Assembly (NCBI GenBank): GCA_028278955.1
Contig: JAPYOC010000184.1
Coordinates: 6,683-30,682 of the forward strand
Length of the DNA: 24,000 bases
Direction: 5' to 3'
From: Candidatus Poriferisocius aerobius
Lineage (GTDB): Bacteria; Actinomycetota; Acidimicrobiia; Acidimicrobiales; Bin134
Part shown: one piece after another, positions 1,788 to 24,000 of the stretch
How the letters are laid out: every line of letters starts with the position of its first letter
Numbering within the stretch: the first letter of the stretch is position 1
Notes under the pieces: generated by a model
What the model was told of the DNA's origin: nothing
The model's input: only the letters and a program-made list of their open reading frames with translations
Databases searched by the model: none
Made by a program: the position numbers and the translations under genes

Positions 1788-3679
1788 TGGGGGCGGAGCA
1801 GTGCCTGGCCCGGGCCCGAGATCGGCTCTTGAGCCTCCAGAACATCGAGGGGTGGTGGAAGGAAGAGCTCGAGACCAACGTGTCCATCGAAGCCGAGGAT
1901 CTGTTCCTGCGGGAGTTCTTGGGCATCGCGGAGCCCGAGATCACCCGGCAGACCGCAAACTGGATCCGCCACAGCCAGCGGGCGGACGGCACCTGGTCGA
2001 CCTACTACCAAGGCTCGGCCGATTTGTCGGTGACGGTGGAGGCCTACTGGGCCCTGCGCTATGCAGGCGACCCCGTGGACGCTGACCACATGGCCAAAGC
2101 GGCCGCCTACATTCGCAGCGAGGGCGGCTTGGAGCGCAGCCGGGTGTTCACTCGAATCTGGATGGCGTTGTTCGGCCTGTGGCGGTGGGAAGACCTGCCC
2201 GCACTGCCGCCCGAGGTGATCCTTCTGCCCAAGCAGGCGCCGTTGAACATCTACGACTTCGCCTGCTGGGCCCGTCAGACCATAGTGGCGCTGACCGTGG
2301 TGGGGGCTCACCGGCCGGTGCGGTCTATGGGGATCGGCTTGGACGAGATCCGCACCGGGGCCGCTCCCCCGGAAAGAGAGCCGGCCCCGGTCGGATCGGC
2401 AGCCAGGCGGTTCCAGCGCCTCGACCGGGTGCTGCACCGCTACGAGAACCGCCCGCACCGGCGGTTGCGGGAATGGTCGCTGCGGAGGGCCGAGCAGTGG
2501 ATCGTGGCCCGCCAAGAGGCCGACGGCTGCTGGGGCGGGATACAGCCCCCCTGGGTGTACTCGCTGCTGGCCCTGTACCTGCGGGGCTACTCCCTGAAAC
2601 ACCCGATCCTGGCCAAAGGGCTTGAGGGCTTCGACGCCTGGACCATCGTCGAAGACGACATGCGGCGCCTGGAGTGCTGCCAGTCGCCGGTGTGGGACAG
2701 CTGTCTGGCCCTGGCGGCGCTGGCCGATGCCGGCCTCGACCCAGACAACCCGCAGATGGTGGCCGGGGCCGGGTGGCTGCTCGATCAAGAGGTGCAAGTG
2801 GTGGGCGACTGGGCCGAGCAGCGACCGCACCTGGCGCCCGGAGGCTGGGCGTTCGAATTCGAGAACAGCCTCTACCCCGACCTCGACGACACGGCCGAGG
2901 TGGCCCTGGCCCTGCGTCGCATACGCCACCCCGACTCCCGACGGGTGCGAAAGGCGCTGGAGCGGGCGGTGGTGTGGATCCAGGGGATGCAGTGCTCGGA
3001 CGGGGGGTGGGCGGCATTCGATGCCGACAACTGCTCGCCGCTGGTGGCCGAGCTGCCGTTCTGCGACTTCGGCGAGGTCGTCGATCCGCCGTCGGCCGAC
3101 GTGACCGCCCACGTCATCGAGATGCTGTGCGAGCTAGACCGTGACGGGCGGGGGCTGAAGGTGGACCAGCAGGCCGTGAGCCGCGGGGTTCGGTGGCTCA
3201 GCGACGAGCAGGAGGACGACGGCTCCTGGTACGGCAGATGGGGTGCCAACCACCTCTACGGAACCGGCGCGGCGATCCCCGCGTTGATCAGCGCCGGGGT
3301 GCCCGCCGACGACGAGCGGGTGGTGCGAGCCTGCCAGTGGCTGGAGTCGGTGCAGAACGCCGACGGCGGCTGGGGCGAGGACATGCGCTCGTACACCGAT
3401 CACCAGTGGCGGGGCCGAGGAGAGTCCACCCCGTCGCAAACCGCGTGGGCGCTGCTGGCGCTGGTGGCCGCCGGCCGGGCCGACAGCCCGCCGGCCCGTC
3501 GGGGCGTGGCCTGGCTGGTGGAGAACCAGCGCCCAGACGGCGACTGGGATGAGCCCTGGTACACCGGCACCGGCTTCTCCGGAGACTTCTACATCCGGTA
3601 CCACCTGTACCGCCTGGTGTTCCCGGTGATGGCCCTGGGCCGCTGGGTGCGGGCTGTGCAGGACCAGACGTGGGCCTGA
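1787..3679 (+). CDS. shc: Squalene-hopene cyclase
   Basis: 630 aa. The catalytic DxDDTA motif is present (YPDLDDTAEV, nt ~2879-2896). There are multiple QW-type repeats (e.g. QNADGGWGE, QRPDGDWDE, QCSDGGWAAF, QEADGCWGG, QRADGTWSTYY). TGATG overlap with the upstream gene (1785-1789). Confidence 0.95.
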   Translation: MGAEQCLARARDRLLSLQNIEGWWKEELETNVSIEAEDLFLREFLGIAEPEITRQTANWIRHSQRADGTWSTYYQGSADLSVTVEAYWALRYAGDPVDADHMAKAAAYIRSEGGLERSRVFTRIWMALFGLWRWEDLPALPPEVILLPKQAPLNIYDFACWARQTIVALTVVGAHRPVRSMGIGLDEIRTGAAPPEREPAPVGSAARRFQRLDRVLHRYENRPHRRLREWSLRRAEQWIVARQEADGCWGGIQPPWVYSLLALYLRGYSLKHPILAKGLEGFDAWTIVEDDMRRLECCQSPVWDSCLALAALADAGLDPDNPQMVAGAGWLLDQEVQVVGDWAEQRPHLAPGGWAFEFENSLYPDLDDTAEVALALRRIRHPDSRRVRKALERAVVWIQGMQCSDGGWAAFDADNCSPLVAELPFCDFGEVVDPPSADVTAHVIEMLCELDRDGRGLKVDQQAVSRGVRWLSDEQEDDGSWYGRWGANHLYGTGAAIPALISAGVPADDERVVRACQWLESVQNADGGWGEDMRSYTDHQWRGRGESTPSQTAWALLALVAAGRADSPPARRGVAWLVENQRPDGDWDEPWYTGTGFSGDFYIRYHLYRLVFPVMALGRWVRAVQDQTWA

Positions 3680-7846: not shown

Positions 7847-8845
7847 GTGGGCGAGTTGGCCGTGGTTGGCATCGGCAACGCCATTGTCGATGTGATCAGC
7901 GCCGAGGACCACGACTTCATCGATATCCACGGCTTGGTCAAGGGCGCCATGACGCTGGTCGACGCCAACCGGGCCGAGCAGCTCTACGGCGCCATGGCCC
8001 CGGCCATGGAGACGTCGGGGGGCTCGGCGGCCAACACGGTGGCCGGCGTGGCCTCGTTCGGCGGGCGCGTGGGCTACATAGGCAAAGTGCGCGATGACCA
8101 GCTCGGGGAGGTGTTCGCCCACGACATCGGAGCGCTGGGGGTGCGCTTCGAGGTGGCGCCGGCCACCGCGGGCCCGCCCACTGCCCGATGCCTCATCATC
8201 GTCACCCCCGACGCGGCCCGCACCATGAACACCTACCTGGGGGCCAGCACCGAGCTGCACCCCGACGACATCGACCCAGATCTGGTGGGCGCAGCCCAAG
8301 TGCTGTACTGCGAGGGCTACATCTGGGACGTGGAGATCACCAAGGAGGCCATCCGCAGGGCCATCTCCCTCTGCTCGGCGGCGGGGGGGACCATCTCGTT
8401 CACGCTGTCGGACAGCTTCTGCGTGGAGCGCCACCACCAGGAGTGGCTCGATTTGGTGGACGGACCCATCGACCTGCTGTTCGGCAACGAGCACGAGATA
8501 TGCACCCTGTACGAGACCGGCGATGATTTCGAAGCCGCCATTGCCGCTGTGCAGGGGCGGTGCGCGGTGGCCGCCCTGACCCGAGGGGCGGCCGGCTCGG
8601 TGCTGGTCACCCCCGATGAGGTCATCAAGGTGCCGGCTGCCCCTGCCTCAGAGGTGGTGGACACCACCGGGGCGGGCGACCTGTACGCCTCGGGCTTCCT
8701 CTATGGATGGACCCAGGGGATGGATTTGGCCCGGTGCGGGCGGCTGGGGTCGCTGGCCGCCACCGAGGTCATCAGCCAGTTCGGCGCCCGCCCTGGCGGG
8801 TCGCTGGCCCGTTTGGCGGGCTCTCCTCCTAGCATCGGGGTATGA
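7847..8845 (+). CDS. PfkB-family carbohydrate/nucleoside kinase, adenosine-kinase-like
   Basis: N-terminal VVGIGNAIVDVI and SGGSAANT, plus the C-terminal PfkB signature DTTGAGDLYASGFLYG. I chose the GTG at 7847 because GGGAGG (7836-7841) lies 5 nt upstream; the in-frame TTG at 7832 is the ORF-track alternative. Its stop overlaps the next ATG (ATGA at 8842-8845). Confidence 0.85.
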   Translation: MGELAVVGIGNAIVDVISAEDHDFIDIHGLVKGAMTLVDANRAEQLYGAMAPAMETSGGSAANTVAGVASFGGRVGYIGKVRDDQLGEVFAHDIGALGVRFEVAPATAGPPTARCLIIVTPDAARTMNTYLGASTELHPDDIDPDLVGAAQVLYCEGYIWDVEITKEAIRRAISLCSAAGGTISFTLSDSFCVERHHQEWLDLVDGPIDLLFGNEHEICTLYETGDDFEAAIAAVQGRCAVAALTRGAAGSVLVTPDEVIKVPAAPASEVVDTTGAGDLYASGFLYGWTQGMDLARCGRLGSLAATEVISQFGARPGGSLARLAGSPPSIGV

Positions 8846-18295: not shown

Positions 18296-18988
18296 TTGCC
18301 CGTGCTGACCCGCAAGCTGGTGGCCGAGGGTGTGGGCACGGCGCTCTTGCTGATCGGCGTGGTGGGCTCGGGGATCATGGCCGAGCGGCTGTCTCCCTCC
18401 GATGCGGGGTTACAGCTTTTTCAGAACGCGGCCGCCACCGCCGGCGTGCTGTACGCCGTCATCTTGATGTTCGGCCCGGTGTCGGGGGCCCACTTCAACC
18501 CGGCAGTGACGCTGGCCGACTGGGCGCTGGAGGGCTTCCCCCGCCGCCACATCGCCCCCTACATCGTAGCCCAGGTGGCCGGAGCAGTGGCCGGGGCGGT
18601 GCTGGCCAACCTGATGTTCGACCTCGACGCGGTGGACTGGTCCTCAAAAGACCGCTCGGCCGGGCATCTGTGGCTGGGCGAGGTGATCGCCACCGCGGGG
18701 CTGGTGGCTCTGATCTTCGCGCTGGTACGCACCGGACGGTACCGGTACGCGGCCGGAGGGGTGGCGGCCTACATCGGCGGGGCCTACTACTTCACCTCTT
18801 CCACCAGCTTCGCCAACCCGGCCGTGACCGTGGGGCGCATGTTCTCCGACAGCTTCGCCGGTATCGAGCCGTCGTCGGCGCCCATGTTCATTGTCATGCA
18901 GATTGCGGGGCTGGTGGCTGCGGTGGCGCTGATCCGGTTTATGTACCCCACGGGGCGGGAACGGGAAGGAGCTTCGGGCGAAAGATAA
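18296..18988 (+). CDS. MIP-family channel (aquaporin/aquaglyceroporin-like)
   Basis: Two NPA boxes: SGAHFNPAVTLA (nt 18497-18505) and SFANPAVTVGR (nt 18815-18823). Six hydrophobic segments. The start is TTG 18296 or GTG 18302 (same frame); neither has a good SD. Confidence 0.9.
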   Translation: MPVLTRKLVAEGVGTALLLIGVVGSGIMAERLSPSDAGLQLFQNAAATAGVLYAVILMFGPVSGAHFNPAVTLADWALEGFPRRHIAPYIVAQVAGAVAGAVLANLMFDLDAVDWSSKDRSAGHLWLGEVIATAGLVALIFALVRTGRYRYAAGGVAAYIGGAYYFTSSTSFANPAVTVGRMFSDSFAGIEPSSAPMFIVMQIAGLVAAVALIRFMYPTGREREGASGER

Positions 18989-18997
18989 TCTCGGCTT

Positions 18998-19873
18998 GTG
19001 GAGATAGCGCTCGACGGCCCGGTGCTGGCCGTGGATATCGGCGGCACCAAGGTGGCCGTCGGCGTCGTTGCCCCCGACGGGCGAGTGCTCTGCCAACGGC
19101 GGGGGCCGTCTCAGGCCGCTGACGAAGAAGCGCTGTTCGCCCTGGTTGTGGATCTGGCCCAGGCAGCCCTCGAAGATCACGGGCAGCCGGTAGCGGGCTG
19201 CGGCGTGGGCAGCGGCGGGCCGTCCCGGGACAACCACCGGCTGCTGTCGCCCCTCAACATCGCCGTGTGGCGAGACTTTCCCCTTCGAGACCGCCTGTCT
19301 GACGCCCTCGGACTGCCGGTGGCGGTGGACAACGACGCCAAAGCCCTGGCACTGGCCGAGGGCTGGGTGGGCGGCGCCGTCGGAGAGGAGAACTACCTGG
19401 CCATGGTGGTATCCACCGGGATCGGCGGTGGCATCGTGTTGAACGGGCGACTGCTCGACGGCGCTGACGGCAACGCCGGCCATATCGGCCACGTCTTCGT
19501 TATGGAGGGCGGACGGGCCGATGCCGCCGGGGCGGTGGGGCTGTTGGAGGGCCAGGCCTCGGGCACCGCCATCGCCGACCTGCTGGACGGCGCCGCCCCT
19601 GCTGATGCGCCGTTGGAGATGCGCCGTCGAGCGGGCACGTTGGTGGGCCGGGGAGTCGGCTCGGTGGCCAACCTGCTGGATGTGCGCCTGGCCGTGGCCG
19701 GCGGATCAGTGGCCCTGGGCTACGGTGGCGATTTCTTTGATGCTGCCCAAGCCGAGATCGACCGCATCTGCCGTCTAGCCCACTCGCGGGGCGCCCGAAT
19801 CATCCCCAGCCCCCTGGGTGCTGACGGCGGTCTCATCGGCGCCGCCGCCGTGGCCGGCCGGACACTGAGCTGA
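18998..19873 (+). CDS. ROK-family protein (putative sugar kinase), zinc-motif-less variant
   Basis: LAVDIGGTKVAVGVV (ATP-binding DxGxT), VDNDAKALALAEGW, VSTGIGGGIVLNGRLLDGADGNAGHIGH. The GTG start lies 9 nt after the MIP stop, indicating an operon. No N-terminal HTH domain, so it is kinase-type rather than repressor-type. Confidence 0.85.
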   Translation: MEIALDGPVLAVDIGGTKVAVGVVAPDGRVLCQRRGPSQAADEEALFALVVDLAQAALEDHGQPVAGCGVGSGGPSRDNHRLLSPLNIAVWRDFPLRDRLSDALGLPVAVDNDAKALALAEGWVGGAVGEENYLAMVVSTGIGGGIVLNGRLLDGADGNAGHIGHVFVMEGGRADAAGAVGLLEGQASGTAIADLLDGAAPADAPLEMRRRAGTLVGRGVGSVANLLDVRLAVAGGSVALGYGGDFFDAAQAEIDRICRLAHSRGARIIPSPLGADGGLIGAAAVAGRTLS

Positions 19874-19888
19874 GCTCTCCATCGGGGG

Positions 19889-21178
19889 TTAGCCCGCTCG
19901 CTTCGACCACAGGCAGTTCAAAGGGCGCAGGTAGAGGCGGTCGCCGATCTTGCCGTGCTGGTCGCCGGTGTGGAGCAGGATGCCGGCTCGGTAGCGGCCG
20001 GGGGCGACGACATCCAGTTTGTCTCGCAGCCAGGCAAGGTGGTTGAGCTGGGCCCGGCTGGGGGAGCGGGTGGCTTTGATCTCCACCGCGACCACGTCGC
20101 CGTTGGGGGCTTCGAGCACGAGGTCCACCTCGCGGCCCTGGTTGTCGCGGTAGTGCGAGAGGGTCAAGTCGTGCTCTGTGGCGGAGAGCTGACGGGCGAT
20201 CTCGTTCACGGCAAAGGTCTCGAGGAGCGGTCCGGCTGCCGGAGAGGTTGGCGGCATGAGGCCATCAGCGTCAAGCCCCAGGAGGCTGGCAGCGAGGCCG
20301 CTGTCGGTTATGTGGAACTTAGCCCGGCGCAGCGGCCGGGAGGGCAGGTTCCGTGACCAAGCCGGGAGTTCATGGACCAAGAACACTGTCTGCAGCCACT
20401 CGAAGTAGGAGCTGACTACCGGGCGGCTCACCTCCAGCTTTCTCGCAGCGTCTGACAGGTTGACGTGGCTGCTGGTGAGCCCGGCGGTCCAGCGCAGAAG
20501 CGCAGGTAGCGCCGCGGCTTTGCGAATGTCGACGAGCGAGGCGATGTCGCGCTGGGTAACCGTTTCGACGTAGCTGCGGAACCAGCTCCTTCTCCGATGG
20601 GGGGCTAGGCCCACGACCTCCGGGTAGCCGCCTCGGCAAACGAGTTCAAGGTACTCGCTTCGGACCATACCGTCAGCGGGGGGCAGCCGATGTTGGCCGT
20701 CGAACCAGCTCATGATCTCGTTGGGTTGCGAACCGGCCAATTCTGCTTCTGACAGCGGCCACAACCGGAAAATCTGAACCCGTCCCGCCAACGACTCGCT
20801 GATAGATGGAACGGTCAGGAAGTTTGTGGACCCGGTGAGCAGGAACCGGCCTGGTGTCGGCTCGGCGTCCACGAGCTGCTTCACTGCCCGGATGAGCCTG
20901 TTTCCGCCCAGCTGGGCTTCATCCACGACGAGGGGGTGGCGCTGGTTGTCCAGGTAGCTGACCGGGTCGGCTTCGGCCAGCTCTCGCTGCGCCTCATCGT
21001 CCAGGGAGACATAGGTTCCCCCCCGGTTTTCGGCGATTGCCTGGGCCAGGGTCGTTTTGCCGCACTGACGGGCCCCGTGCAGCAACACCACTCGGGACCA
21101 CTCCAAGGCGTCTTGCACTTGGGGCTGAATGTGCCGCCTGACGAACTCCACGCCCTGACTCCAATTGCTGATTGACAA
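19889..21178 (-). CDS. AAA_14/DUF4143-type ATPase with C-terminal PD-(D/E)xK-like segment (COG1373-like)
   Basis: Walker A LLHGARQCGKTTLA and Walker B PLVVDEAQ. The central region is typical of DUF4143 proteins (FRSYVETVTQRDI...LLRWTAGLTSSHVNLSDAARKLEVSRPVVSSYFEWLQ). The C-terminal GREVDLVLEAPNGDVVAVEIKAT resembles a D...E-x-K restriction-endonuclease-fold core. The TTG start lies inside the first of three 12-bp repeats. Confidence 0.85.
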   Translation of the reverse strand: MSISNWSQGVEFVRRHIQPQVQDALEWSRVVLLHGARQCGKTTLAQAIAENRGGTYVSLDDEAQRELAEADPVSYLDNQRHPLVVDEAQLGGNRLIRAVKQLVDAEPTPGRFLLTGSTNFLTVPSISESLAGRVQIFRLWPLSEAELAGSQPNEIMSWFDGQHRLPPADGMVRSEYLELVCRGGYPEVVGLAPHRRRSWFRSYVETVTQRDIASLVDIRKAAALPALLRWTAGLTSSHVNLSDAARKLEVSRPVVSSYFEWLQTVFLVHELPAWSRNLPSRPLRRAKFHITDSGLAASLLGLDADGLMPPTSPAAGPLLETFAVNEIARQLSATEHDLTLSHYRDNQGREVDLVLEAPNGDVVAVEIKATRSPSRAQLNHLAWLRDKLDVVAPGRYRAGILLHTGDQHGKIGDRLYLRPLNCLWSKRAG

Positions 21179-21225
21179 ACTGCATGCTATCTAATTTACA
21201 AAACGCAGTACCACTAATTGACAAA
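21168..21225. repeat. Three phased 12-bp direct repeats (23-bp period) at the 5' end of, and upstream of, the AAA_14/DUF4143 gene
   Basis: Plus strand: CTGATTGACAAA (21168-21179), CTAATTTACAAA (21191-21202), CTAATTGACAAA (21214-21225). Each copy has one mismatch to R3, the spacers are exactly 11 nt, and start-to-start spacing is 23 nt twice. On the coding (minus) strand the unit reads TTTGT(C/A)AAT(T/C)AG. The proximal copy contains the TTG start codon. The surrounding 60 nt (21181-21240) has 26/60 G+C by hand count. Confidence 0.85.
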
Positions 21226-21338
21226 TCGTCGGCCCTTCGCCAGCAGCCACGAAGCAGAGTTCGGCGTGCCTAAAGAACCCGAGTCGTGAACCCCTTTGCA
21301 CACCTTCCGGATTCCTTGGCTTGACCTGCTACACACCG

Positions 21339-23348
21339 CTAGCCCCAGTGGTCGGCTTGGTAGGCCATCATGTTGTCGCCGTGAAGCTGCTTGGTGGCGT
21401 TGCCAGTGCGGACCCAGAACTCAGAGGCTGGGCCTCCTCCTTCAGGTGCCCTGGCGAATACCGGTTTGGCCGAAGCTGAGGCTGTGACGATGCAAACGTC
21501 TGTTCCGGCGTGGCGCTCAAAGTGGATGCGCACTGTTGCCGCGGTTGGAGCGGACAGAGCATTGTCGAGAAGCTGGCGCAAGAAGAGTTCGTAGCCGTCT
21601 GAGTTTCCTTTGCTTCCCAGGGTTCGCATATCGTCGGCGAGCCCGATCGCGTTCGCGTCATCGTCCACTCCGATGAGCAGCTTGCCTCCCTCTGCGTTGA
21701 GGAACCCGCACACTGTCTTGGCGATCACATGCTCTAGCTTCTTATCCGGCCGGCCGGTGTGCAGGTTGAAGCGGGCGGTGGATTTGAATTCGACGGTCTG
21801 CGATTCACCGGCGTCTAGCAGGTCATCCAATGTGAAGGAGGAGTGGCCTTCGCCGGGGCGATCCCACAGGCGTTCAAAGCCACTCCGAGTCACTCTGGCC
21901 ATCAGCGCCCGGCGCTTCTCGAGAAATTCTGGGTATTCCAATTGCTCCCAGCCCACTGGCAGCGCATGCCACTCGATTTGCCGTTGGCGCTGGTCAGGAT
22001 TCAGGCGGCTGGATATTGCTGGCCAGTACTCCATGGGGTCGCTAGCTCCGACATCAGAGTTTTCTGGCCAGTCCAAGAAGGCCATGTTGGCGATGGCGTT
22101 GACCTGTCGAGTTTCGGTGATGCCTCCAGCCTTCAGATGAGCCTTTGGGAAGAGGTGATGGCGCTCGACTGAGCGAGTTGCGCTCTCGCCAGACCTTAGC
22201 AAGTCCCTCATCTTGAGGCTGCTGAACAGGAGTTCGGCATCGAGCAGGTTCAGAGCGGCCCAGTAGGCGCACAGAGCAGGGGATTTGGCTGATGATGTGT
22301 CGAGCCGTGTCGGGAGCGTGACATCCCAGTAGTCGTTTGTGAAGTTGGCTTTGATCTGCCGGTCGAGTTCAGCGCAGAACGCGTCAGGGTTGTTCGGCTC
22401 CAGAGAGCTTATACGGCCCAAGTCGGCATCTAAGGCGGTTTCGCTCGACCCTGTGTAGCGGCCTGTCGTGTGGGCCATGAAGAACCAACGGGCTATCACG
22501 CGCTGAAGAGCCGAGACGCTCAAACCAAAGTTTCGGCGGCCGATCAGCCAGATCACATAGCAGTAGATCAAGGCGGTATCGGATGTGACCATACGCCGCC
22601 CGCGGAAGCCAGCAAGAGTCAGGCACTTGAGGTACTCATGCCAGTTGGTCAGGTCAAGCACCTCGTCTTGGGCCGAGCGCAGCCGTTCAAACTGCTCATC
22701 TCGGCGAGCAGTTGACACTTCTCCGGTGCTGAGGTCCTTGCCTCTGAGAATGCTGTAGACATGCTGGAGGCGGGCTCGGCGGAACGCTAGCCCGACGCTC
22801 GCCCGAAGTAGCTGGTCGGGGCTCGGGTCAATGAAAGCGTTCTTTGGTGACGGGCCCTGCACAGAGGGGTCAACGGCGTCGCGGCTGAATTGCTCGAGTT
22901 CTCTTCGCCCCTTTTCTAGGTGAACTGACATCAGCGTGAGGATGAAGTCTGCTTGGTTGAGCTGCACCCCTTCTGAGTTGATCCGTACGAAGATGTCTGC
23001 GACCTGCTCCTCGTCGGCGTTCGCATTGAGTTGTATGACCTGGAAGCGAAAATCTCTGAGGTCGCGAACGCGATCTATTCTGCCTTCGAGTTCCTCATCC
23101 TCCTCTTCGAGAAGTTCTTTACCCCGGTTCTCGGCCAGCCTGGTCAAGAAGGAGCGCACCGTTGCTCGGTAGCGGTCCTTCCACAGCTCCGTGATGTCGG
23201 GAATGAACTCAGGGTCTTTTCTGATTGCTGCGTCGGCCACCTCGAAGGTTTCGTTGGAGGGGCAGAAGGCGATTTGGATTTGGGCGGCGAGTATAGAGGG
23301 CGCTGATTGTGCTATGCCCCAGAGGTGAATCCATTCTGCTGCTTGCAA
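21339..23348 (-). CDS. GmrSD-like protein: distal DUF262 segment + HH-type DUF1524-like nuclease motif + C-terminal AlbA_2/Schlafen-like domain. The canonical N-terminus is missing, so this may be a 5'-truncated remnant.
   Basis: EEQVADIFVRINSEGVQLNQADFILTLMSV (nt ~22939-23000) matches the conserved distal block of DUF262. RSVERHHLFPKAHL...VNAIANMAFLDWPENSDVGASDP (nt ~22135-22167 for ERHHLFPK) matches the His-His nuclease motif of the GmrSD C-terminal/DUF1524 type. ESQTVEFKSTARF...VIAKTVCGFLNAEGGKLLIGVDDDANAIGL...EFWVRTGNATKQL (nt ~21342-21810) is a textbook AlbA_2 (Schlafen-core-like) domain. No DGQQR or upstream QR motif occurs anywhere in the translation. The only start is a TTG at 23348 with no SD, 29 nt after the upstream gene's stop. 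Confidence 0.8.
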   Translation of the reverse strand: MQAAEWIHLWGIAQSAPSILAAQIQIAFCPSNETFEVADAAIRKDPEFIPDITELWKDRYRATVRSFLTRLAENRGKELLEEEDEELEGRIDRVRDLRDFRFQVIQLNANADEEQVADIFVRINSEGVQLNQADFILTLMSVHLEKGRRELEQFSRDAVDPSVQGPSPKNAFIDPSPDQLLRASVGLAFRRARLQHVYSILRGKDLSTGEVSTARRDEQFERLRSAQDEVLDLTNWHEYLKCLTLAGFRGRRMVTSDTALIYCYVIWLIGRRNFGLSVSALQRVIARWFFMAHTTGRYTGSSETALDADLGRISSLEPNNPDAFCAELDRQIKANFTNDYWDVTLPTRLDTSSAKSPALCAYWAALNLLDAELLFSSLKMRDLLRSGESATRSVERHHLFPKAHLKAGGITETRQVNAIANMAFLDWPENSDVGASDPMEYWPAISSRLNPDQRQRQIEWHALPVGWEQLEYPEFLEKRRALMARVTRSGFERLWDRPGEGHSSFTLDDLLDAGESQTVEFKSTARFNLHTGRPDKKLEHVIAKTVCGFLNAEGGKLLIGVDDDANAIGLADDMRTLGSKGNSDGYELFLRQLLDNALSAPTAATVRIHFERHAGTDVCIVTASASAKPVFARAPEGGGPASEFWVRTGNATKQLHGDNMMAYQADHWG

Positions 23349-23377
23349 GGCGACATGGCTTGGGTACCAGGCAGTCG

Positions 23378-24000
23378 TCAGTCGCTGAAGTTTTGAATTT
23401 TCAGGTGGCGGGACATGGCTGAGCCGGCGGGGCCGAGGAGCATCTGAGCCCGCAGGTGGCGTTTGTGGAACAGTGCGACGAGGGCCTCGTCGTAGCGGGC
23501 GGTGTCGGCGTTGGCCAGTACGAACCGCTCCAGCTCAGCCTCACCTGCCAGCCACGACTCGGGGCGATGGCCCAGCAGCTCGTGGAGGTCGTCAAGGTCG
23601 GCTTCGGAGACGGCGTCGCCGATCTCGTCGATGCGGGCGGCGTGGCGGGCCATGCGGAACATGGTGCGCAGCTTGTAGCGGAGGTATTCGTCTTCTATCT
23701 GTACGGTGCGCAGGTTTCGCACCAGGTGGTTGAGCACCACCTCGGCCCGGGACTCCCGGGGTTCGGGCAGCTCCACCTCGGGCAGCTCCACGTCGAGGAT
23801 CTCGGCGAGGGCCTCGGTGGCGAACAGGTTGGTCTCGTAGCACCACTGGAGGTTGGTCATCAGATCGGAGTCGGGGGCCGGCTGCCGCAGCGCTGCGCTG
23901 AACGGAAGCTGGTTGGAGAGGGTGAACATGAAGTGGTGGCGTTGGATGGCGTCTAGGTCCACCGGCTCTCCGGCCAGCTCTGCGTAGCGGTCGTACAGCT
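23378..24000 (-). CDS. Hypothetical protein, 3' portion (gene continues beyond the window); possibly a C-terminal helical region of a phosphotransferase (APH-like)/DUF6285-like protein
   Basis: The frame is open from the window edge (…LYDRYAELAGEP precedes the GTG at 23962), so this is 5'-partial. It has the high G/C third-position bias of the host genome. The functional guess rests only on a loose pattern resemblance (…Y..L.G.PVD.DAI… followed by a helical segment AEVVLNHLVRNLRTV…LRYKLRTMFRMARH…). Confidence 0.6.
   Translation of the reverse strand, partial: LYDRYAELAGEPVDLDAIQRHHFMFTLSNQLPFSAALRQPAPDSDLMTNLQWCYETNLFATEALAEILDVELPEVELPEPRESRAEVVLNHLVRNLRTVQIEDEYLRYKLRTMFRMARHAARIDEIGDAVSEADLDDLHELLGHRPESWLAGEAELERFVLANADTARYDEALVALFHKRHLRAQMLLGPAGSAMSRHLKIQNFSD

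What the first reader, a model, noticed from the sequence alone, without database searches (positions are those of the whole stretch)
21339..23348. GmrSD-like nuclease fused to an AlbA_2/Schlafen-like domain and lacking the DGQQR NTPase half
The 669-aa product combines three elements. (i) It has only the distal conserved block of DUF262 (IFVRINSEGVQLNQADFILTLM). (ii) It has an HH-type nuclease motif (ERHHLFPKAHL ... NAIANMAFL..ENSDVG) like the C-terminal nuclease domain of GmrSD/SspE-type type IV restriction and phosphorothioate-sensing enzymes. (iii) It has a complete C-terminal AlbA_2 domain, the Schlafen core fold usually seen at the N-terminus of putative nucleic-acid-binding ATPases. I know of no characterised GmrSD/SspE/BrxU-type enzyme with an AlbA_2 domain appended. 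In the canonical enzymes the DGQQR-containing N-terminal NTPase controls the nuclease. Here that part is absent: there is no DGQQR in the translation, the ORF starts at an SD-less TTG, and the 29 nt upstream run straight into the stop of a high-GC host-like gene. Two readings are possible. One is a new architecture in which an AlbA_2 sensor replaces NTPase control. The other is a recently 5'-truncated remnant with 669 still-intact codons. The gene is AT-richer than the flanks (hand counts 31/60 at 23041-23100 and 37/60 at 22261-22320, versus 47/60 at 3421-3480).
Basis: partly seen in the sequence, partly recalled or inferred. Interest (0 to 1): 0.72.

Follow-up and report, generated by a model that had tools for sequence, protein, structure and literature searches.

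The report
Beheaded BrxU-like/Schlafen defence gene remnant
This 669-codon reading frame is what remains of a common 757-residue anti-phage gene (BrxU-like restriction enzyme fused to a Schlafen nuclease) after a small deletion removed its start codon and first 111 codons, so it is most likely a young pseudogene and not a new architecture.

Summary
The ORF, the motifs, the significant AlbA_2/Schlafen domain, the missing DGQQR, the TTG start and the GC counts all check out.

More than 100 close homologues are 752-770 aa, and all carry about 110 extra N-terminal residues with the DIQRPFVW and DGQQR motifs. Of 80 genomic loci, 75 encode the full length.

DNA alignment places the breakpoint at window 23282/23283. 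The native upstream region is kept up to the position of the old ATG. It includes a TATACT -10-like box with leaderless-type spacing. It is then joined to codon ~111 across a CCGCC(C)A microhomology. ORF codons 1-22 are therefore translated former promoter DNA.

Sister strains (99.8% nucleotide identity) share the junction and show decay:
- 8 nonsynonymous versus 1 synonymous SNP in the remnant, against 3 versus 9 in flanking genes.
- Substitutions at family-invariant D178/Q179.
- A 1-nt frame-shifting indel in the "leader".
- A further 394-nt deletion that removes the end of the Schlafen domain.

The architecture itself is not new. DUF262-Schlafen fusions are a catalogued class (pSlfn7, 109 members), and one E. 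coli member has been shown to protect against phages. The full-length family folds like BrxU/SspE plus a Schlafen domain.

Verdict: a degraded member of a known kind, of low interest.

The parts
21339..23348 (-). Annotated 669-codon ORF (TTG start). It is the 5'-truncated remnant of a ~757-aa BrxU-like (DUF262 + HNH-like) - Schlafen fusion gene.
   Evidence: DNA homology to the full-length gene of L002 runs over window 23283..21338 = L002 8333..10278 at 87% identity. The L002 gene starts at 8001.
23283..23348 (-). ORF codons 1-22 (MQAAEWIHLWGIAQSAPSILAA). This is not ancestral coding sequence; it is the translated former upstream/promoter region of the gene.
   Evidence: This stretch aligns to the untranslated upstream regions of L002, L043 and L012. 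No homologue protein aligns before query residue ~23. In sister strain L003 a 1-nt deletion puts it in another frame, with a different start (the ATG at window 23334-23332).
23281..23289 (-). Deletion junction. The sequence CGCCGCCC|A joins the position of the old start codon to codon ~111, across a CCGCC(C)A microhomology. About 332 nt of 5' coding sequence, including the ATG, are missing.
   Evidence: L002 reads ...TAGACTCTCCGCCC|ATGCC... at the start and ...GAGAACCGCC|AAATCCAAATC... at codon ~110. The window reads TATACTCGCCGCCC|AAATCCAAATC.
23290..23295 (-). Retained -10-like hexamer TATACT, 8 nt upstream of where the start codon used to be (leaderless-type layout; inferred).
   Evidence: The 9 closest full-length relatives have TA[GA][GA]CT ending 7-9 nt before ATG/GTG and no Shine-Dalgarno. 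Overall 14/75 loci show this, against 1.2% at random positions.
23316..23327 (-). Conserved upstream motif CACCTCTGGGGC of unknown role. It may be a promoter element or an operator.
   Evidence: It is nearly invariant (one mismatch in L043) in window, L002, L043 and L012, while the surrounding sequence varies.
22938..23282 (-). Residual distal part of the DUF262/ParB-like NTPase domain (residues 23-137, including FVRINSEG). The QR and DGQQR blocks are gone.
   Evidence: Pfam GmrSD_N matches profile positions 103-195/199 only, at 31.5 bits, below the cutoff. Full-length P0002 covers profile positions 4-195 at E 1.4e-33. The A1 alignment shows the missing blocks.
22029..22196 (-). HNH/His-Me-finger-like core of the DUF1524-like nuclease domain (residues ~385-440; ERHH...N...N...N).
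   Evidence: H397, H398, N417 and N421 are invariant in 112/112 relatives, and N430 in 111/112. The whole-length fold matches BrxU and SspE. GmrSD_C gives weak hits in 7/58 relatives.
21384..21806 (-). Complete Schlafen/AlbA_2 domain (residues 515-655) with the catalytic-type motif E515-x4-E520-x-K522.
   Evidence: Pfam E 5.9e-15 over the full profile. The family profile and model match SLFN11/12/13/14 and SAMD9. The motif definition comes from bioRxiv 10.1101/2025.07.24.666596. Invariance is shown.
21240..21633 (-). Segment deleted (394 nt) in sister-strain alleles L003/L004 (P0123-P0125). It covers the last ~98 codons of the Schlafen domain, the stop codon and part of the intergenic region.
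23378..24000 (-). 3' part of the upstream APH-family phosphotransferase gene (host-like; runs off the window).
   Evidence: One search identifies PF01636, 454 aa. This part is 90% nucleotide-identical to L014, where the same gene precedes a full-length copy.
19889..21178 (-). Downstream neighbour: an AAA_14 + DUF4143 ATPase that matches the PADLOC defence candidate PDC-S01.
   Evidence: E 8.9e-143.

Best explanation
The ORF is a recent, probably non-functional 5'-truncated remnant of a horizontally mobile single-gene anti-phage system.

The intact form is about 757 aa. It has a BrxU/GmrSD-like type IV restriction core: an N-terminal DUF262/ParB-like NTPase carrying the QR and DGQQR motifs, a helical linker, and a DUF1524-like His-Me nuclease. 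A C-terminal Schlafen-type nuclease domain is appended to this core.

In this lineage a microhomology-mediated deletion between two CCGCC(C)A repeats removed about 332 nt. The deletion runs from the start codon to codon ~111. It left the gene's own upstream region, including a -10-like TATACT, fused to the middle of the DUF262 domain. The annotated TTG start and the first 22 codons are an accidental open frame through former promoter DNA.

The gene in this clade looks leaderless, so the retained promoter would produce an mRNA that begins at the junction without a start codon (inferred). Little or no protein is therefore expected. Any product would lack the nucleotide-binding core that controls BrxU-type enzymes. 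The remnant is now drifting: it is accumulating amino-acid changes, a frame-shifting indel and a second deletion in sister strains.

Shown here: the truncation, the junction, the family architecture and the population decay. Inferred: leaderless transcription and lack of expression or function.
For: Homologues are longer.
- More than 100 close homologues are 752-770 aa. They align only from query residue ~23 and all carry DIQRPFVW and DGQQRLTSL upstream.
- 75/80 genomic loci encode the full length.

Breakpoint and junction.
- The DNA breakpoint is at window 23282/23283.
- The 93 nt between the APH stop and the breakpoint align to the upstream regions of full-length genes right up to their ATG. 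The junction microhomology is CCGCC(C)A.
- No trace of the missing 111 codons lies elsewhere in the window or in 22 kb of the parent contig (tblastn E>=3.3).
- L014 keeps the ancestral order APH - full-length gene - AAA_14/DUF4143 - ROK.

Decay in sister strains.
- Sister contigs at 99.8% identity share the junction.
- Between L001 and L005, 9 of 25 SNPs fall in the remnant, which is 14% of the aligned length (binomial p 0.006).
- These are 8 nonsynonymous to 1 synonymous, against 3 to 9 in flanking genes (Fisher p 0.0075, or 0.043 when clustered SNPs are counted as single events).
- D178E and Q179R hit columns invariant in 111/112 and 112/112 relatives.
- L003/L004 add a 1-nt indel that shifts the 'leader' frame and a 394-nt deletion of the Schlafen C-terminus.
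- All 8 members of the 90%-identity cluster are truncated.

Promoter layout.
- The 9 closest relatives show a leaderless-type layout, TA[GA][GA]CT-N7-9-ATG/GTG with no Shine-Dalgarno.

Family identity.
- PADLOC HEC-05 (= BrxU) matches P0002 at E 9.3e-36.
- The PDB profile search hits BrxU at E 2.7e-13.
- Foldseek hits BrxU at 3.3e-12 over 656 columns and SspE at 3.8e-5, as well as Schlafen and SAMD9 domains.
Against: The remaining 647 homologous codons are intact in the window allele. All catalytic-type residues of the HNH-like and Schlafen domains are preserved. The window allele has 0 private changes at 126 otherwise-invariant columns. Decay is therefore seen in sister alleles, not in this one.

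The SNP sample is small (25 SNPs). Three of the nonsynonymous changes (E126K, Q129K, N131K) are states found in other family members and may be one conversion patch.

The gene lies 29 nt downstream of a same-strand gene, and no terminator-like site was found, so read-through transcripts containing the TTG or the internal GTG (codon 37) cannot be excluded. No expression data are available.

Independent 5'-truncated but otherwise intact copies exist in other lineages (L058, L083). This could mean that short forms are tolerated or used.
Confidence: 0.85

Rival explanations
1. The truncated gene is a functional variant. An HNH-like DNase plus a Schlafen RNase would be expressed without the DUF262 NTPase switch, from the TTG, from GTG37, or by read-through from the APH gene. 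It would act as an NTP-independent effector, or would be regulated in trans by another protein.
For: The 669-codon frame is intact and the catalytic-type residues are invariant. The window allele has no private changes at conserved columns. Both leader frames happen to offer a start codon. Independently 5'-truncated but otherwise intact ORFs of 557-561 aa exist in L058 and L083, and there are cluster representatives of 565-582 aa that start near the same point. No terminator-like site lies after APH.
Against: The start codon and the nucleotide-binding core are deleted by a simple microhomology event, not replaced by a new module. The N-terminus is not conserved in frame between strains that are 99.8% identical. 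Nonsynonymous changes are in excess, including at invariant positions. The Schlafen domain is deleted in sister alleles. Half of a ParB-like fold is left at the N-terminus. In L058 and L083 the homology extends about 26-28 codons upstream of the first possible start codon, as expected for remnants and not for designed short genes. From established knowledge of BrxU, SspE and GmrSD, the DUF262 NTPase is needed for regulated activity, and an unregulated nuclease would be toxic.
Confidence: 0.1
2. The truncation is an artefact of assembly or gene calling. On this view a chimeric contig or a sequencing error hides the real N-terminus.
For: The sequence comes from metagenome assemblies. The start is an unusual TTG with no Shine-Dalgarno.
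Against: The same junction is present in independent assemblies from three JGI samples and a Logan SRA assembly; the same truncated protein also occurs in NCBI records, whose DNA was not examined. The flanks on both sides are collinear with L014. No N-terminal coding remnant exists in any frame. The junction sequence is explained base by base by a deletion.
Confidence: 0.02
3. The protein is an ordinary full-length GmrSD whose QR/DGQQR blocks are present in degenerate form within residues 1-60.
For: None, beyond the weak GmrSD_N hit.
Against: Pfam covers only profile positions 103-195. Residues 1-22 derive from untranslated upstream DNA. Residues 23-60 align to family positions 112-149, downstream of DGQQR.
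Confidence: 0.01

Closest known systems
BrxU (PADLOC HEC-05), the BREX-associated GmrSD-family type IV restriction enzyme (PDB 7p9k/7p9m)
   Same: BrxU is the best match to the full-length relatives by every method used:
- PADLOC HEC-05, E 9.3e-36.
- PDB profile search, E 2.7e-13.
- Foldseek, E 3.3e-12 over 656 aligned columns.

The domain order is the same: DUF262 NTPase (QR, DGQQR), helical linker, then a DUF1524-like His-Me nuclease. Many relatives of 580-600 aa have no add-on and are the size of BrxU.
   Different: Sequence identity is only about 16%. Pfam GmrSD_C barely detects the nuclease domain. The family here carries an extra C-terminal Schlafen domain. The window copy lacks the first 111 residues, including both NTPase motifs. 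No BREX genes are nearby.
DUF262-Schlafen fusions (class pSlfn7 of Taboada et al., bioRxiv 10.1101/2025.07.24.666596), including the tested E. coli UC4224 protein WP_028985442.1
   Same: The Pfam-level composition is the same, GmrSD_N plus SLFN_AlbA_2 in the same order. Both carry the Schlafen E-x4-E-x-K motif. The class is reported as 109 proteins with a defence score of 0.76, and the E. coli member protects against T3, T7 and other phages.
   Different: The E. coli protein is 589 aa and shows only domain-level similarity to this family: 27% over 93 aa in DUF262 and 23% in the Schlafen domain. It shows no HH...N...N nuclease motif between the two domains (by eye). Its best PADLOC hits are NsnA and PD-T4-2, not HEC-05. 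I could not establish whether the three-domain actinobacterial family is among the 109 catalogued proteins. The window copy is truncated.
SspE and DndI (phosphorothioate-sensing DUF262-DUF1524 nucleases; PDB 6jiv, 9jfl)
   Same: The overall two-domain fold is similar (Foldseek E 3.8e-5 and 1.7e-2). There are weak PADLOC SspE hits to the N-terminal domain of P0002.
   Different: These are much more distant than BrxU. No ssp/dnd modification genes lie in the neighbourhood. They have no Schlafen domain.
Eukaryotic Schlafen and SAMD9 tRNase domains (SLFN11/12/13/14, SAMD9)
   Same: The C-terminal domain matches by sequence profile (E ~1e-3) and by fold. It keeps the catalytic-type acidic/lysine motif.
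   Different: It is a single ~140-aa domain appended to a restriction-enzyme core. No helicase or other Schlafen C-terminal domains are present. Activity is untested.

Membership tests
GmrSD/BrxU-type type IV restriction enzymes (DUF262 + DUF1524) | N-terminal DUF262/ParB-like NTPase domain with the QR and DGQQR motifs | tested here: not met
   In the window protein, Pfam GmrSD_N covers profile positions 103-195/199 only, at 31.5 bits, below the 33.2 cutoff, and there is no QR or DGQQR. The feature is met in the full-length relatives: P0002 covers profile positions 4-195 at E 1.4e-33, and D86, G87, Q88, Q89 and R90 are at least 90% conserved in 58 diverse members.
GmrSD/BrxU-type type IV restriction enzymes (DUF262 + DUF1524) | C-terminal DUF1524 His-Me (HNH-like) nuclease domain | tested here: inconclusive
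GmrSD/BrxU-type type IV restriction enzymes (DUF262 + DUF1524) | Nucleotide-dependent cleavage of modified phage DNA | not testable with these tools
   This needs biochemistry or phage assays.
Prokaryotic Schlafen defence proteins, class DUF262.pSlfn (pSlfn7) | Schlafen/AlbA_2 domain with the E-x4-(E/D)-x-K motif | tested here: met
   Pfam SLFN_AlbA_2 matches at E 5.9e-15 over the full profile. E515, E520 and K522 are present and invariant in 112/112 relatives. The motif is as defined in bioRxiv 10.1101/2025.07.24.666596.
Prokaryotic Schlafen defence proteins, class DUF262.pSlfn (pSlfn7) | DUF262 domain fused N-terminally to the Schlafen domain | tested here: inconclusive
   Only the distal half of DUF262 remains in the window protein, below the Pfam cutoff. 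The feature is fully met in the ancestral full-length form.
Prokaryotic Schlafen defence proteins, class DUF262.pSlfn (pSlfn7) | Orthology to the experimentally tested E. coli UC4224 member | tested here: not met
   BLASTP finds only two short domain-level segments, at 27% and 23% identity. The middle regions and the best PADLOC hits differ.
Functional protein-coding gene (as opposed to pseudogene) | Ancestral start codon and N-terminus retained, with a reading frame conserved among close strains | tested here: not met
   The start codon and 111 codons are deleted. The leader frame differs between strains that are 99.8% identical.
Functional protein-coding gene (as opposed to pseudogene) | Purifying selection (excess of synonymous over nonsynonymous polymorphism) | tested here: not met
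   The remnant has 8 nonsynonymous to 1 synonymous SNP, against 3 to 9 in the flanking genes. Fisher p is 0.0075, or 0.043 by events. The sample is small.

The most novel reading that the evidence does not exclude
The beheaded gene is still expressed, by read-through from APH or from the internal GTG at codon 37. Its product would be an NTPase-free HNH-Schlafen protein that retains a selectable role, for example a constitutively primed effector or a dominant partner of another defence protein. The independent 5' truncations of the same family at about residue 171 in other lineages (L058, L083, and several cluster representatives) would then reflect recurrent selection for short forms and not repeated decay.
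Probability: 0.07. Interest if true: 0.5.

Novelty: new member of a known kind. Interest (0 to 1): 0.15.

Why it matters
As a gene it matters little. It is a decaying copy of a defence gene whose domain composition is already catalogued and, for one distant member, experimentally validated.

It has three modest uses:
- It is a clean, base-resolved example of how single-gene defence systems are inactivated. A microhomology deletion removed the leaderless start, and further decay followed within one population.
- It warns that automatic annotation (669 aa, 633 aa, 587 aa and 582 aa calls for the same locus) can present pseudogene remnants as novel architectures.
- It points to a large, untested three-domain family (BrxU-like DNase core plus Schlafen RNase) that is widespread in sponge-associated Acidimicrobiia and other bacteria. 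The full-length members, not this copy, would be the ones to test.

Tried and rejected
- NCBIfam gave no hit for the ORF or for the upstream fragment.
- The promoter/terminator consensus scan found nothing in 21100-23600. This is uninformative for a high-GC actinobacterium.
- I looked for the missing N-terminus elsewhere in the window and in 22 kb of the contig. It is absent.
- I tested whether the window allele itself shows relaxed constraint, by counting private changes at otherwise-invariant columns. There are none, so evidence of decay comes from sister alleles only.
- blastn-short of the 96-nt junction segment against all loci gave only a 14-nt seed. A multiple alignment was needed to reveal that the segment is the native upstream region.
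- I searched the supplement of the Schlafen preprint for relatives of this family. None was found in the stored, cut part.
- The plasmid sequences in that supplement were truncated. I recovered the tested E. coli gene through a 312-nt fragment and the E. coli genome collection.
- Literature searches for 'DUF262 + AlbA_2' returned nothing. Machnicka et al. 2015 list the DUF4268, DUF4357 and DNA_binding_1 add-ons but not AlbA_2.
- I considered and rejected a link between the remnant and the neighbouring AAA_14/DUF4143 gene as an obligate two-gene system. A homologue is nearby in only 8 of 80 loci.
Full report
**1. Checking the observation**

The ORF at 21339..23348 on the minus strand exists. 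It has 669 codons and starts at TTG.

Pfam finds a complete, significant Schlafen/AlbA_2 domain: residues 515-655, profile positions 1-117 of 118, E 5.9e-15. It finds only the distal part of GmrSD_N/DUF262: profile positions 103-195 of 199, 31.5 bits, just under the 33.2-bit cutoff.

The upstream same-strand gene ends 29 nt before the TTG. It is an APH-family phosphotransferase.

The three hand GC counts are exact. The gene is 58.6% GC against 67.9% for the rest of the window.

One element is not backed by a profile hit. Pfam GmrSD_C/DUF1524 does not match this protein.

**2. What the homologues show**

A search of the large protein collection returned thousands of hits. The best 120 are 65-87% identical and almost all are 752-770 aa long. 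They cover the query only from residue ~23 onward.

In the alignment every homologue has about 110 additional N-terminal residues carrying DIQRPFVW and DGQQRLTSL.

In a scan of one genome per species, 105 stretches encode a relative. Of the best 80 loci, 75 encode the full length. Three are cut by contig ends, and two (L058, L083) are truncated elsewhere.

The family occurs mainly in Acidimicrobiia MAGs, many with sponge-symbiont names such as Ca. Poriferisocius, Poriferisodalis and Aldehydirespirator. It also occurs in Streptomyces, Mycobacterium, Microbacterium, Dokdonella, Gemmatimonadota and Alphaproteobacteria. It is AT-richer than its flanks in other genomes too. Both features are typical of a horizontally mobile defence gene.

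**3. The breakpoint, base by base**

blastn against the locus of the closest full-length relative (L002, a 3.5-Mb Acidimicrobiales chromosome) aligns window 23283..21338 to L002 8333..10278 at 87% identity. The L002 gene starts at 8001, so 332 nt of 5' coding sequence are missing.

Another genome, L014, keeps the same gene order as the window: APH, the gene, AAA_14/DUF4143, then ROK. It has a full-length copy. Its 445 nt between the APH stop and codon ~111 correspond to only 93 nt in the window.

Those 93 nt are not foreign DNA. In a multiple alignment they match the untranslated upstream regions of the full-length genes in L002, L043 and L012, right up to the position of their ATG. The match includes a nearly invariant CACCTCTGGGGC (one mismatch in L043) and a -10-like hexamer, TATACT in the window and TAGACT in the relatives, followed by 8 nt.

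- L002 reads TAGACTCTCCGCCC|ATGCC at the start and GAGAACCGCC|AAATCC at codon ~110.
- The window reads TATACTCGCCGCCC|AAATCC.

The event is therefore a simple deletion between two CCGCC(C)A microhomologies. It removed the start codon and the first ~111 codons and left the promoter region in place. Codons 1-22 of the annotated ORF are an accidental open frame through former upstream DNA.

tblastn finds no trace of the lost segment elsewhere in the window or in 22 kb of the parent contig.

**4. Likely loss of translation (inference)**

The nine closest full-length relatives all have TA[GA][GA]CT ending 7-9 nt before ATG or GTG, with no Shine-Dalgarno. More distant relatives have GGAGG-like sites instead. 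The hexamer layout occurs in 14/75 loci against 1.2% at random positions.

From established knowledge of actinobacterial promoters, this spacing is the layout of leaderless genes, in which transcription starts at the A of the start codon. If that holds here, the retained promoter would start the mRNA at about window 23281, with no start codon at its 5' end. The annotated TTG (23348) and the alternative ATG (23334) would both lie upstream of the transcript.

Read-through from APH cannot be excluded, because no terminator-like site was found. Gene callers disagree on the product. The same locus is called as 669, 633 (GTG at codon 37), 587 and 582 aa.

**5. Population evidence for decay**

The 90%-identity cluster of this protein has eight members from independent assemblies. 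All are truncated at the 5' end. Three sister contigs were retrieved. They are 99.7-99.9% identical to the window's contig over 14 kb and share the junction.

*L001 (window) against L005.* There are 25 SNPs in 14,010 nt.
- Nine lie in the 2,010-nt remnant (binomial p 0.006).
- Eight of those nine are nonsynonymous.
- The twelve SNPs in flanking genes are 3 nonsynonymous to 9 synonymous (Fisher p 0.0075).
- When the two tight SNP clusters are each counted as one event, the contrast is 5:1 against 3:9, p 0.043.
- D178E and Q179R replace residues invariant in 111/112 and 112/112 full-length relatives.
- E126K, Q129K and N131K are states seen in other family members and may be a conversion patch.

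*L003 and L004.* These carry a 1-nt deletion in the C-run at the junction. It shifts the 'leader' into another frame, giving the start MDSPLGHS... from the ATG. They also carry a 394-nt microhomology deletion (window 21633-21240) that removes the last ~98 codons of the Schlafen domain.

*The window allele.* This is the least decayed allele. It has no private change at 126 otherwise-invariant columns, so the truncation is recent.

**6. What the intact gene is**

Full-length P0002 matches GmrSD_N over the whole profile (E 1.4e-33) and SLFN_AlbA_2. Its other matches are:
- PADLOC HEC-05 at E 9.3e-36. This model is BrxU (bioRxiv 10.1101/2024.01.29.577857).
- BrxU 7p9k in a family-profile search of the PDB, E 2.7e-13, and Schlafen proteins at E ~1e-3.
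- In a Foldseek search with an AlphaFold2 model built from 58 diverse sequences (mean pLDDT 87.5): BrxU over 656 columns (E 3.3e-12), SspE (3.8e-5), DndI, and Schlafen, SAMD9 and DIP2311 domains for the C-terminus.

Across 58 diverse members, the conserved residues are the QR and DGQQR motifs, the RINS-G asparagine, and H486/H487, N506, N510 and N519 in P0002 numbering. These correspond to H397/H398, N417, N421 and N430 in the window protein. In the model they sit on strand-strand-helix elements, consistent with a His-Me finger. GmrSD_C is detected weakly in 7/58 members.

The Schlafen domain carries E-x4-E-x-K (E515, E520, K522), invariant in 112/112 relatives. This is the catalytic signature reported for prokaryotic Schlafens.

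An exhaustive representative search gives 690 clusters at E<=1e-30. Many are 580-600-aa proteins equal to residues 1-585 without the Schlafen add-on. Other members carry RAMA, DUF4268, DUF4357 or HEPN domains instead.

The intact protein is therefore best described as a BrxU-like type IV restriction core with a swappable C-terminal module, here a Schlafen nuclease. By analogy with BrxU and SspE (established knowledge), the DUF262 NTPase gates the His-Me DNase. The Schlafen domain would add RNA, probably tRNA, cleavage. This last point is inference.

**7. Comparison with what is known**

Taboada et al. (bioRxiv 10.1101/2025.07.24.666596) classify 5,930 prokaryotic Schlafen proteins. DUF262-Schlafen fusions make up 1.8% of them (class pSlfn7, 109 proteins, defence score 0.76). 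A DUF262-Slfn protein from E. coli UC4224 protects against T3, T7 and other phages.

I recovered that gene (WP_028985442.1, 589 aa), which sits next to the portal gene of a P2-like prophage. It shares only domain-level similarity with the family here. It appears to lack the HNH-like middle domain. Its best PADLOC hits are different.

The three-domain family is thus a distinct lineage of a known composition, and is itself untested. I could not determine whether it is among the catalogued 109 proteins. Machnicka et al. 2015 list other C-terminal add-ons of GmrSD proteins but not AlbA_2.

**8. Verdict**

The locus is a recent 5'-truncated remnant, most likely a pseudogene (confidence about 0.85), of a widespread BrxU-like-Schlafen defence gene. 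It is not a new architecture in which AlbA_2 replaces NTPase control.

The residual possibility is that the beheaded protein is made and used. This cannot be excluded without expression data. The population data argue against it. The only fact hinting at it is that independent 5' truncations of this family recur in other lineages. I score interest as low.

Noticed in passing
window 19889-21178 (-): The downstream neighbour is an intact AAA_14 + DUF4143 ATPase that matches the PADLOC defence candidate PDC-S01 at E 8.9e-143. A homologue lies within 6 kb of the BrxU-like-Schlafen gene in 8 of 80 loci, so the two often share small defence islets but are not an obligate pair.
   Followed up: partly
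L058 6001-7764 and L083 6001-7758 (also proteins P0129, P0156, P0206, P0150): Independent 5' truncations of the same family occur in unrelated lineages. All begin near family residue ~171-190, inside the acidic helical insertion of DUF262, and the ORFs of 557-582 aa are otherwise intact. L058 is 93% identical to a full-length (1004-aa) protein, so the truncations are separate events. It is unclear whether this is a deletion hotspot or a tolerated short form.
   Followed up: partly
window 23316-23327 (-), and the same position upstream of the genes in L002, L043 and L012: A CACCTCTGGGGC motif lies about 20 nt upstream of the -10-like hexamer. It is nearly invariant (one mismatch in L043) among relatives whose surrounding upstream sequence has diverged. 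It may be a promoter element or a regulator binding site.
   Followed up: no
window 18301-24000 compared with L014 and L002: The flanks (APH and AAA_14-ROK) are 84-90% identical to L014, but the remnant is only 76% identical to L014's gene and 87% identical to L002's gene, which sits in a different arrangement. The defence gene allele seems to have been exchanged by recombination independently of its flanks.
   Followed up: partly
window 21240-21633 (deleted in L003/L004): A second, 394-nt microhomology deletion in sister strains removes the end of the Schlafen domain and part of the intergenic region. It occurs with both leader frames and with both SNP haplotypes (P0123 versus P0124/P0125). 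This implies recombination among the alleles or recurrence of the deletion.
   Followed up: partly
family alignment A4 (58 diverse members): The C-terminal add-on of the BrxU-like core is modular: Schlafen in 24 members, RAMA in 6, DUF4268 in 2, DUF4357 in 1 and HEPN in 1-2. Many members have no add-on. Some relatives (P0101, P0116; 1004 aa) also have an N-terminal PF28530 extension.
   Followed up: no
L002 7121-7555 and 12152-12757: In the closest full-length locus, the gene is flanked by a PIN-domain gene and a Fic-domain gene, with the AAA_14/DUF4143 gene upstream. This looks like a small variable island next to the conserved ROK, transglycosylase and SOD genes.
   Followed up: no
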